From contig OZ024752.1 in the NCBI GenBank assembly GCA_964016885.1, positions 30,008,001-30,072,000 on the forward strand: 64,000 nucleotides of DNA. Direction: 5' to 3'. The translations under genes were made by a program, and so were the position numbers. The notes under the pieces are model-generated. The model was not told the origin of the DNA and searched no databases. It was given only the letters and a program-made list of their open reading frames with translations. Below, piece by piece: positions 6,551 to 7,557 of the stretch. Source of the stretch: Eledone cirrhosa (Eukaryota). The first letter of the stretch is position 1. Every line of letters begins with the position of its first letter.

Positions 6551-6708
6551 CATATATACATATATATATGTATATATATATATACATATATATACATATA
6601 TATATATACATGAATATATATATATACATATATACATATATATATGTATATATATATATACATATATATATGCATATATACATGTATATATATATATACA
6701 TATATATA
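5769..6708. repeat. Compound (TA)n/(TATAC)n microsatellite
   Basis: Directly visible; source of the Y/I-rich ORFs. Confidence 0.97.
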
Positions 6709-7557
6709 AACAATTAAGTTAAAAATGTACATCTACATATGCATACTGAAATACTAGTGTGTATATGAATACACACACGTATACATATGTAGGTGTACCA
6801 AGTCTTTCACTGGTCGCTTTACAGTGAGCGGCCCAGCTATTCTGTATGTAAACACACAGACAAACCGGTTTTTAGAGTCATACTGGTTTTTCGGGGGAAC
6901 ACCTTCCCCCTATTCTCCAGAAAGCCAGACAAGGAATATTGAACTAGTTTCGTTGTTGTTACAACTCATCAGCAATATTTACCTATCTACCGGCCTTTCT
7001 GGAGAATTGTAAAAGCACATATCGTTATATGCTTTTTCTATGAAAATTAGTAGTGGGCAGACTAATTTGCATAGAGTGTGAGTACGCACCGGTTCAGCGG
7101 AGACGATAAAAACAAATAACGAAACGAAATTAAATTTCGTTTCGTTTGTAACTCACTTTTGTATGACTGACGCTTAAACAATTAAGTTAAAAATGTACAT
7201 CTACATATGCATACTGAAATACTAGTGTGTATATGAATACACACACGTATACATATGTAGGTGTACCAAGTCTTTCACTGGTCGCTTTACAGTGAGCGGC
7301 CCAGCTATTCTGTATGTAAACACACAGACCGGTTTGTCTGTGTGTTTACATACAGAATAGCTGGGCCGCTCACTGTAAAGCGACCAGTGAAAGACTTGGT
7401 ACACCTACATATGTATACGTGTGTGTATTCATATACACACTAGTATTTCAGTATGCATATGTAGATGTACATTTTTAACTTAATTGTTTAAGCGTCAGTC
7501 ATACAAAAGTGAGTTACAAACGAAACGAAATTTAATTTTGTTTCGTTATTTGTTTTT
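6707..7557 (-). mobile_element. Penelope-like/retrozyme-like element: 468-bp unit, partial tandem copy and inverted segment
   Basis: 6707-6851 is repeated at 7175-7329 (period 468). 7328-7557 is the reverse complement of ~7108-7330. Contains a hammerhead and has (TA)n on both sides. Confidence 0.8.
6935..6979 (-). ncRNA. Minimal type-I hammerhead ribozyme
   Basis: AATATTG-CTGATGA-GTTGT aaca ACAAC-GAAAC-TA-GTT-CAATATT. Perfect 7-bp stem I, 5-bp stem II, palindromic ACTAGT stem III; outer helix TTCTCCAGAAAG/CTTTCTGGAGAA. Confidence 0.92.

What the first reader, a model, noticed from the sequence alone, without database searches (positions are those of the whole stretch)
6707..7557. 468-nt unit with partial tandem copy and 5' inversion at an ACCGGT palindrome
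Seen: about 1.3 tandem units followed by an inverted 230-bp arm. The switch occurs exactly at the self-complementary ACCGGT (7328-7333). The unit is non-coding and carries a near-perfect hammerhead inside a long helix. Inference: reverse transcription of a circular or multimeric RNA for more than one round, then fold-back priming. Near-identity of the repeats suggests a recent insertion.
Basis: partly seen in the sequence, partly recalled or inferred. Interest (0 to 1): 0.7.

Follow-up and report, generated by a model that had tools for sequence, protein, structure and literature searches.

The report
Young hammerhead retrozyme, twin-primed Penelope-style
This is one of thousands of young copies of a 468-base non-coding repeat that carries a predicted self-cutting RNA and sits in TA microsatellites as two back-to-back arms, nearly always one ending at each of two fixed sites, which likely records a Penelope-type jumping-gene enzyme copying a small, probably circular RNA onto both ends of a cut chromosome.

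Summary
In detail: 1.33 tandem 468-nt units, an inverted 231-nt arm, and a type I hammerhead on the minus strand. It is one insertion of a young non-LTR retrozyme family (5,195 exact hammerhead cores; 2,088 exact ends of one class in (TA)n). Copying past the ribozyme site, probably on a circle, fits: arrays of 18-20 near-identical units, no arm stopping at the cut. Fold-back at ACCGGT does not: junctions scatter over the unit, and 9 of 47 loci cannot be fold-backs. Copies are not permuted. Their outer 3' ends are fixed at two sites 69 nt apart, and all 48 scorable two-arm insertions among 67 loci have one of each; a wider scan found one exception. An intact RT+GIY-YIG Penelope-like family in this genome obeys the same rule (11 of 11). 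Best reading: both ends of a cut (TA)n prime reverse transcription at two RNA sites, and the two cDNAs join head-to-head by microhomology. Tandem/inverted/tail Penelope structure and retrozymes are published; the near-obligate pairing I did not find in print. This scan noted the same footprint before in other families and genomes. Cleavage, circles and the partner enzyme are untested.

The parts
6697..6708 (.). Left copy of a likely 12-nt target-site duplication, at the end of a ~930-bp (TA)n-rich tract; overlaps the element end by 2 nt
   Evidence: low-complexity flank, so chance is possible; 12-13-nt duplications seen at 7 of 40 loci, most others lie in pure (TA)n where none can be read
6707..7329 (-). 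Arm 1 (623 nt, 1.33 units). RNA sense is the minus strand; unit positions 81-468 then 1-235, counted from the predicted cut. Outer end at the family's short (S) site, 235
6707..7174 (-). One complete 468-nt unit; 37.8% GC; no ORF over 20 aa; strongly self-paired as a circle (MFE -162.8 kcal/mol, z -11 against 40 shuffles)
6919..6990 (-). Type I hammerhead: stem I 7 bp plus outer helix, CUGAUGA, stem II 5 bp, GAAA, 2-bp stem III with palindromic ACUAGU; predicted cut after GUU, between 6942 and 6941
   Evidence: covariation in stems I and II between two homologous families with an invariant core
7106..7174 (-). Internal copy of the 69-nt tail (unit 236-304) between the two fixed end sites; holds a 13-bp hairpin (7118-7146) inside a domain closed by GUGAGU (7151-7156) / ACUCAC (7078-7083)
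   Evidence: 0.83% variation against 2.5-3.6% in the body over 27 loci; the closing helix is kept in the second family
7175..7329 (-). Partial tandem copy, 155 of 155 identical to 6707-6861
7328..7333 (.). Head-to-head junction: 2-nt microhomology AC (7328-7329) at the ACCGGT hexamer
7328..7558 (+). Arm 2 (231 nt), unit 73-303, no hammerhead; outer end at the family's long (L, tail-bearing) site
7557..7568 (.). Right copy of the likely target-site duplication, followed by (TA)n

Best explanation
This is a young insertion of a non-coding hammerhead repeat (a non-LTR retrozyme) with two head-to-head arms ending at two fixed sites, likely made when a Penelope-like RT/GIY-YIG protein cut a (TA)n tract and used both DNA ends to prime reverse transcription at two sites of one, probably circular, RNA. 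Shown in sequence: unit, hammerhead fold, copy number, (TA)n target, two fixed outer ends, one of each per insertion, scattered inner ends with microhomology. Inferred: (1) tandem arrays are transcribed and the hammerheads, probably as dimers through the palindromic stem III, cut out 468-nt monomers that are ligated to circles; (2) the protein binds the conserved tail domain and makes a staggered cut of about 12 nt; (3) one DNA end primes at unit position 304, the other at 230-235; (4) each cDNA runs a variable distance, round the circle if long enough; (5) the two cDNA 3' ends are joined by short homology, sometimes at a palindrome as here. My odds: retrozyme with a Penelope footprint 0.93; two independent primings 0.75; circular template 0.65.
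For: Family: 5,195 exact 32-nt hammerhead cores, control 0; 2,088 exact L ends followed by (TA)n. Ends: of 67 insertions (40 ranked by identity, 27 taken in order along C1), 48 have two arms with both ends at a fixed site and all 48 are one L (301-305) plus one S (229-235); 7 of these have one arm of only 8-15 nt; 8 have an atypical end, 11 have one arm. By coordinates on C1 2-124 Mb: 31 L/S pairs (7 already counted), no true L/L or S/S. Fold-back test: from the L arm possible in 30 of 47, from the S arm in 8, neither in 9; independent arms predict 12 (7-17). Microhomology of 2 nt or more in 15 of 26 scorable junctions against 17% by chance; 21 junctions were not scorable in that run. Template: 18 complete units identical across both arms of L043, with 3 private variants; 20 units differing at 2 positions in L058; in the positional set arms differ by 0.45% within a locus against 0.91% to the nearest other locus, closer in 10 of 15. 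Enzyme: RT plus C-terminal GIY-YIG ORFs; one family has 131 scored copies at 96-100% amino-acid identity, many with 775-codon open frames, two ends 68 nt apart, and L+S in 11 of 11 two-arm insertions among 26 loci. Literature: two internal RT start sites bounding the tail, both strands cut and extended, predicted dimer (PMC11167929).
Against: No RNA evidence: cleavage, ligation and circles are untested. One true S/S insertion (L152) among about 73 S ends listed, so the pairing is not absolute. About 10 of 47 junctions are near-symmetric against 6.6% expected, which is what self-priming predicts (PMC3846280), and this window is one of them. Two loci (L030, L039) mix two variants, so one RNA molecule is not always the only template; among the youngest copies, arms are no closer to each other than to other loci (5 of 27), which is uninformative rather than supportive. 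No sequence homology between the unit and the ends of 40 Penelope-like loci was found. The 68 versus 69 nt match is weak: the homologous second family has a 55-59-nt tail by my count. In the one in-vitro study hammerhead cleavage was not needed for insertion (PMC11167929). Period-2 and period-3 variant patterns in L054 and L058 could be unequal crossing-over after insertion.
Confidence: 0.75

Rival explanations
1. Same element and enzyme, but one priming event followed by fold-back (self-priming) at a palindrome or hairpin, with the second end fixed by endonuclease resolution or a bound protein.
For: About 10 of 47 junctions near-symmetric, several at palindromes (L017, L050, L063, this window); 38 of 47 loci are geometrically compatible with one or the other direction; proposed for Penelope in PMC3846280 and PMC8557442 (passages).
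Against: 9 of 47 loci fit neither direction, as many as independent arms predict; L110's arms (62-229 and 251-304) do not overlap at all. No single direction fits more than 30 of 47. Two RT start sites were seen in vitro (PMC11167929).
Confidence: 0.12
2. Twin priming as in the best explanation, but on uncleaved linear multimeric transcripts of existing tandem arrays, or on two sibling RNAs, with no circle.
For: Long genomic arrays exist to give such transcripts; stem III is weak and GUU is a slower triplet (recalled); hammerhead cleavage was dispensable in vitro (PMC11167929); 8 of 9 Xenopus dimers did not cleave (10.64898/2026.07.22.740005); mixed templates in L030 and L039.
Against: Arrays could only shrink by this route, yet young dispersed insertions reach 18-20 near-identical units; the hammerhead fold is kept with compensatory changes; related animal retrozymes accumulate as circles (PMC7229834, passages). 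This rival shares steps 2, 3 and 5 with the best explanation.
Confidence: 0.25
3. A DNA-level satellite or MITE-like element, or an assembly fold-back artefact, whose inverted ends form by recombination or misassembly.
For: Insertions have inverted outer ends and TA targets, superficially like MITEs; the flanks are long microsatellites that are hard to assemble.
Against: The two outer ends are different sites and the inner junction differs at every locus; a read-derived contig crosses this junction; raw Illumina reads of two other samples show another opposite-strand joint of the family, 5 and 6 reads; autonomous retroelements share the layout.
Confidence: 0.02

Closest known systems
Metazoan non-LTR retrozymes (Cervera and de la Pena 2020, PMC7229834, passages; Li, Clavereau and Pollet 2026, 10.64898/2026.07.22.740005, parts 1-3 of 5 plus term search)
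   Same: Non-coding tandem unit with a type I hammerhead, short palindromic helix III, GC under 50%, duplications longer than 4 bp, thousands of copies, co-occurring with Penelope-like elements, which both papers propose as the mobiliser.
   Different: Neither main text, in what I read and searched, describes inverted arms, fixed ends or a tail for retrozymes. The unit is at the upper end of the sizes in PMC7229834. No circle or cleavage is shown here. Supplements were not read.
EN+ Penelope-like elements: partial tandem, inverted 5'-truncated copy, tail (Craig et al. 2021, PMC8557442; Arkhipova et al. 2013, PMC3846280; passages)
   Same: Head-to-head arms, tail often at one end only, (TA)n bias, 8-10-bp duplications, palindromes at some junctions; non-autonomous multicopy derivatives are known (MRC1).
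   Different: No ORF; tail 69 nt rather than 30-40; the tail is called optional there, whereas here one tailed plus one untailed end is nearly obligatory; the data favour two primings over the proposed self-priming.
Poseidon PAc in vitro (Frangieh et al. 2024, PMC11167929, parts 1-2 of 4)
   Same: Two internal RT start sites that bound the tail, AT-rich targets, both strands cut and extended.
   Different: No difference in start site between strands was seen in vitro and inverted products were not addressed; here the two ends of one insertion use different sites.
L1 twin priming (recalled, no call)
   Same: Two primers from one staggered cut give an inversion joined by microhomology.
   Different: In L1 the second site is variable and the arms do not overlap; here both sites are fixed and the arms copy the same sequence, often many times.

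Membership tests
Metazoan non-LTR retrozyme | Type I hammerhead with conserved core in each unit | tested here: met
   76 of 88 full monomers share one exact motif, N17 is U, C or A in the variants seen
Metazoan non-LTR retrozyme | Head-to-tail tandem units of a few hundred bases, GC under 50% | tested here: met
   468 nt, 37.8% GC, arrays to 20 units
Metazoan non-LTR retrozyme | No protein coding, no LTR pair | tested here: met
   longest ORF 20 aa; layout; PBS and PPT not searched
Metazoan non-LTR retrozyme | Target-site duplication longer than 4 bp when present | tested here: met
   12-13 nt at 7 of 40 loci, including L073 and L045 outside pure (TA)n
Metazoan non-LTR retrozyme | Two consecutive complete hammerheads in the copy (Li et al. 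definition of active) | tested here: not met
   this copy has one hammerhead; many family arrays have two or more
Metazoan non-LTR retrozyme | Self-cleavage of the RNA | not testable with these tools
   fold and covariation only
Metazoan non-LTR retrozyme | Accumulation as monomeric circular RNA | not testable with these tools
   no run on record as RNA was offered
Penelope-mobilised non-autonomous element | Partial tandem plus inverted 5'-truncated copy, tail at one end | tested here: met
   48 of 48 scorable two-arm insertions among 67
Penelope-mobilised non-autonomous element | Tail of 30-40 bp | tested here: not met
   69 nt; but autonomous families here have about 38, 39, 47 and 68 nt
Penelope-mobilised non-autonomous element | Homology to the pLTR of an autonomous partner | tested here: inconclusive
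   none in 40 loci drawn from 10,596 GIY-YIG candidates
Autonomous Penelope-like element | RT plus GIY-YIG ORF | tested here: not met
Plant LTR retrozyme | Type III hammerhead in LTRs, 4-bp duplication | tested here: not met
   type I topology, 12-13-nt duplications
Rfam Hammerhead_HH9 (RF02275) | Gathering score 52 bits | tested here: not met
   38.6 bits; no Rfam hit at gathering level in the window

The most novel reading that the evidence does not exclude
Penelope-type proteins insert by asymmetric twin priming: one complex holds one RNA by its tail domain and starts one cDNA on each side of that domain, one per DNA end, and on a retrozyme circle both RTs roll, so every mirror-image insertion is a record of two rolling-circle cDNAs joined head-to-head. 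The tail would be the footprint of the bound dimer, not an optional extension, and the published self-priming model would explain at most a minority of junctions.
Probability: 0.5. Interest if true: 0.68.

Novelty: new member of a known kind. Interest (0 to 1): 0.45.

Why it matters
How Penelope-like elements make their tandem and inverted insertions is called undefined in PMC8557442, and that they mobilise animal retrozymes has been argued from co-occurrence and pLTR similarity only. This family gives direct insertion-footprint evidence for the link and a sharp, countable rule (one long plus one short end) that separates twin priming from self-priming. A 468-nt RNA with two mapped start sites and an intact candidate enzyme family in the same genome is a ready in-vitro substrate. 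The element itself is ordinary for its class, and the scan has noted this footprint many times.

Tried and rejected
ACCGGT as a hotspot: 4 of 94 ends near it, 2.2 expected. Linear cleaved monomer as template: 0 of 94 inner ends at the cut. Expression: no RNA holder listed; run X3 is of unrecorded kind and was not used as evidence. A loose end in X3 that looked like a partner element was one insertion (L124) joined to an old LINE copy. Partner search: no convincing match of the unit to 40 Penelope-like loci; a 30-nt 80% match lay inside an ORF and a 15-nt match was antisense. Apparent fixed differences between arms of L043, L046, L047 and L052 were gap-placement artefacts, removed. An L/L candidate was two separate insertions (L153). 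RNAalifold on a 7-sequence alignment did not recover the GUGAGU/ACUCAC helix, so that helix rests on single-sequence pair probabilities and on its presence in both families. Rfam miRNA hits at the junction only reflect the hairpin; no credible Rfam hit in the autonomous family's pLTR. RAD reads gave no information on this locus. Paper searches for the pairing rule and for this host group found nothing beyond the papers cited; the library lacks most subscription papers, and supplements were not read.

Full report
What is there. The window holds, between two long TA-rich microsatellites, an 852-bp insertion at 6707-7558. Positions 6707-6861 recur exactly at 7175-7329 (period 468), and 7328-7558 is an inverted copy with one mismatch. 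A type I hammerhead lies on the minus strand at 6919-6990 (Rfam HH9, 38.6 bits, E 7e-9, under the curated cut-off). Its predicted cut follows GUU, between 6942 and 6941. I number the unit from that cut in the ribozyme sense. The left arm then runs 81-468, 1-235 and the right arm 73-303. Both outer ends are 3' ends and the 5' ends meet in the middle, sharing 2 nt. A read-derived contig crosses the junction without differences, though short of the tool's bridging standard and possibly from the same sample.

The family. The genome (G000, 3.0 Gb, animal) has 5,195 exact copies of a 32-nt hammerhead core and 2,088 exact copies of one end class followed by (TA)n. Five other loci match the window's unit at 100%; loci taken in order along C1 differ from each other by a median 3.6%. 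A homologous 468-nt family, with a copy 1 kb downstream in this window, keeps the catalytic core and changes stems I and II on both sides (24 cells with double changes, 92% paired); that rests on essentially two lineages, so it is a few events, not 24. Stem III is 2 bp with a palindromic loop, the form said to work as a dimer (PMC4209133, passages).

The end rule. I classified 67 insertions: 40 ranked by identity to the window and 27 taken in order along C1. Outer ends fall at unit 229-235 (S) or 301-305 (L). Forty-eight have two arms with both ends at such a site; all are one L plus one S. Seven of the 48 have one arm of only 8-15 nt. Eight have one atypical end and 11 have a single arm (9 L, 2 S). 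A coordinate scan of the first listed S and L ends on C1 gave 31 L/S pairs, 7 already counted, one L/L candidate that proved to be two insertions, and, further along, one real S/S insertion. The 69-nt stretch between the sites varies 0.83% across 27 loci against 2.5-3.6% in the body and folds as a 13-bp hairpin inside a closing helix. Both flanks carry TA repeats at 37 of 40 loci, and 12-13-nt duplications can be read at 7.

The junction. Inner ends are spread over the whole unit; none of 94 is at the ribozyme cut and 4 are near ACCGGT, 2.2 expected. Fifteen of 26 scorable junctions share 2 nt or more against 17% by chance; 21 more had inserted letters or variants that this run could not score. 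About 10 of 47 are near-symmetric, more than the 6.6% expected, several at palindromes. So palindromes help joining, as noted for Penelope in PMC3846280 (passages), but a fold-back needs the second arm to lie within the first. That holds from the L arm in 30 of 47 loci, from the S arm in 8, and from neither in 9, close to the 12 expected for independent arms (two complex loci left out, L110 added). The window's own copy is compatible with either route.

The template. Ninety-eight of 112 arms run through the cut site. L043 has 18 identical complete units over both arms with 3 variants seen nowhere else; L058 has 20 units differing at 2 positions. In the positional set the two arms are closer to each other than to any other locus in 10 of 15. 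Two loci mix variants. This fits rolling copying of one circle, or of siblings, but a multimeric transcript is not excluded, and no RNA run was available.

The enzyme. The genome has many RT plus C-terminal GIY-YIG ORFs. One family, with a Cx4CxxC linker of the kind described for Neptune and Nematis elements (sequence; PMC8557442, passages), is young and often intact. It inserts in (TA)n with two ends 68 nt apart, L+S in 11 of 11 two-arm cases among 26 loci. Single examples of three other families show the same asymmetry with tails of about 38, 39 and 47 nt. The partner is not identified: no homology to the unit was found in 40 loci, and tail length varies between the two retrozyme families.

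Mechanism. Frangieh et al. (PMC11167929, parts 1-2 of 4) showed a Poseidon protein cutting and extending both strands and starting at two internal RNA sites that bound the tail. Joined with the pairing rule, the simplest model is a staggered cut in (TA)n, each end priming at its own site, variable extension round a circle, and head-to-head joining by microhomology. The layout is shown; every enzymatic step is inferred.

Comparison and novelty. It meets the sequence criteria for animal non-LTR retrozymes (PMC7229834; 10.64898/2026.07.22.740005) and carries the published Penelope insertion signature. I file it as a new member of a known kind. The near-obligate L+S pairing and its use against self-priming did not appear in searches; supplements, which I did not read, may show such cases. 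Earlier notes of this scan report the same footprint for other families: 109 findings matched the words, in at least 30 genomes, none by sequence. They are unchecked notes, not independent support; one with exceptions led me to look for exceptions here. Interest 0.45.

Noticed in passing
window 8588-9176: Insertion of a second, homologous 468-nt hammerhead family (GUA site, motif on the minus strand near 8878), also head-to-head with one short and one long end; other copies in L015, L041, L079, L111, L130.
   Followed up: partly
L152:1412-2156: A true short/short two-arm insertion with a GUC hammerhead variant; the one exception to the pairing rule found.
   Followed up: yes
L058+L147 left arm; L054:1958-4124: Variants recur with period 3 (A,G,G three times) and roughly period 2 along arrays: trimeric or dimeric circles, or later unequal crossing-over.
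   Followed up: partly
L030:1432-2576; L039:1789-2835: Two subfamily variants within one insertion, in L030 switching inside an arm: template switching or two RNAs in one complex.
   Followed up: partly
L100:1773-2250; L112, L116, L106, L093, L096: pLTRs of several Neptune-like families share a motif ending in ACCGGTAAA that resembles a hammerhead with an altered core; no credible Rfam hit. Possibly an unusual ribozyme.
   Followed up: partly
L103:1790-1850 (minus), L149: Another autonomous family has a clear minimal hammerhead with palindromic loop 3 in its pLTR, and a tail of about 47 nt.
   Followed up: partly
window 34027-34427, 42350-42691, 41386-42129, 36987-38528: Further mirror-image insertions in TA tracts; 34027-34427 has unequal ends and 42350-42691 holds CUGAUGA...GAAA motifs, so probably more Penelope-type copies.
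   Followed up: no
window 22549-22600, plus strand: A hammerhead-like motif (CUGACGA...GAAA) outside the two families.
   Followed up: no
window 7667-7770: A short (CAT)n-tipped repeat just right of the insertion; similar sequences flank L031, L053 and L141.
   Followed up: no
L124:1043-1530: Single-arm copy whose 5' end is joined directly into an old LINE fragment; the same joint is in a contig of run X3.
   Followed up: yes
   Followed up: no
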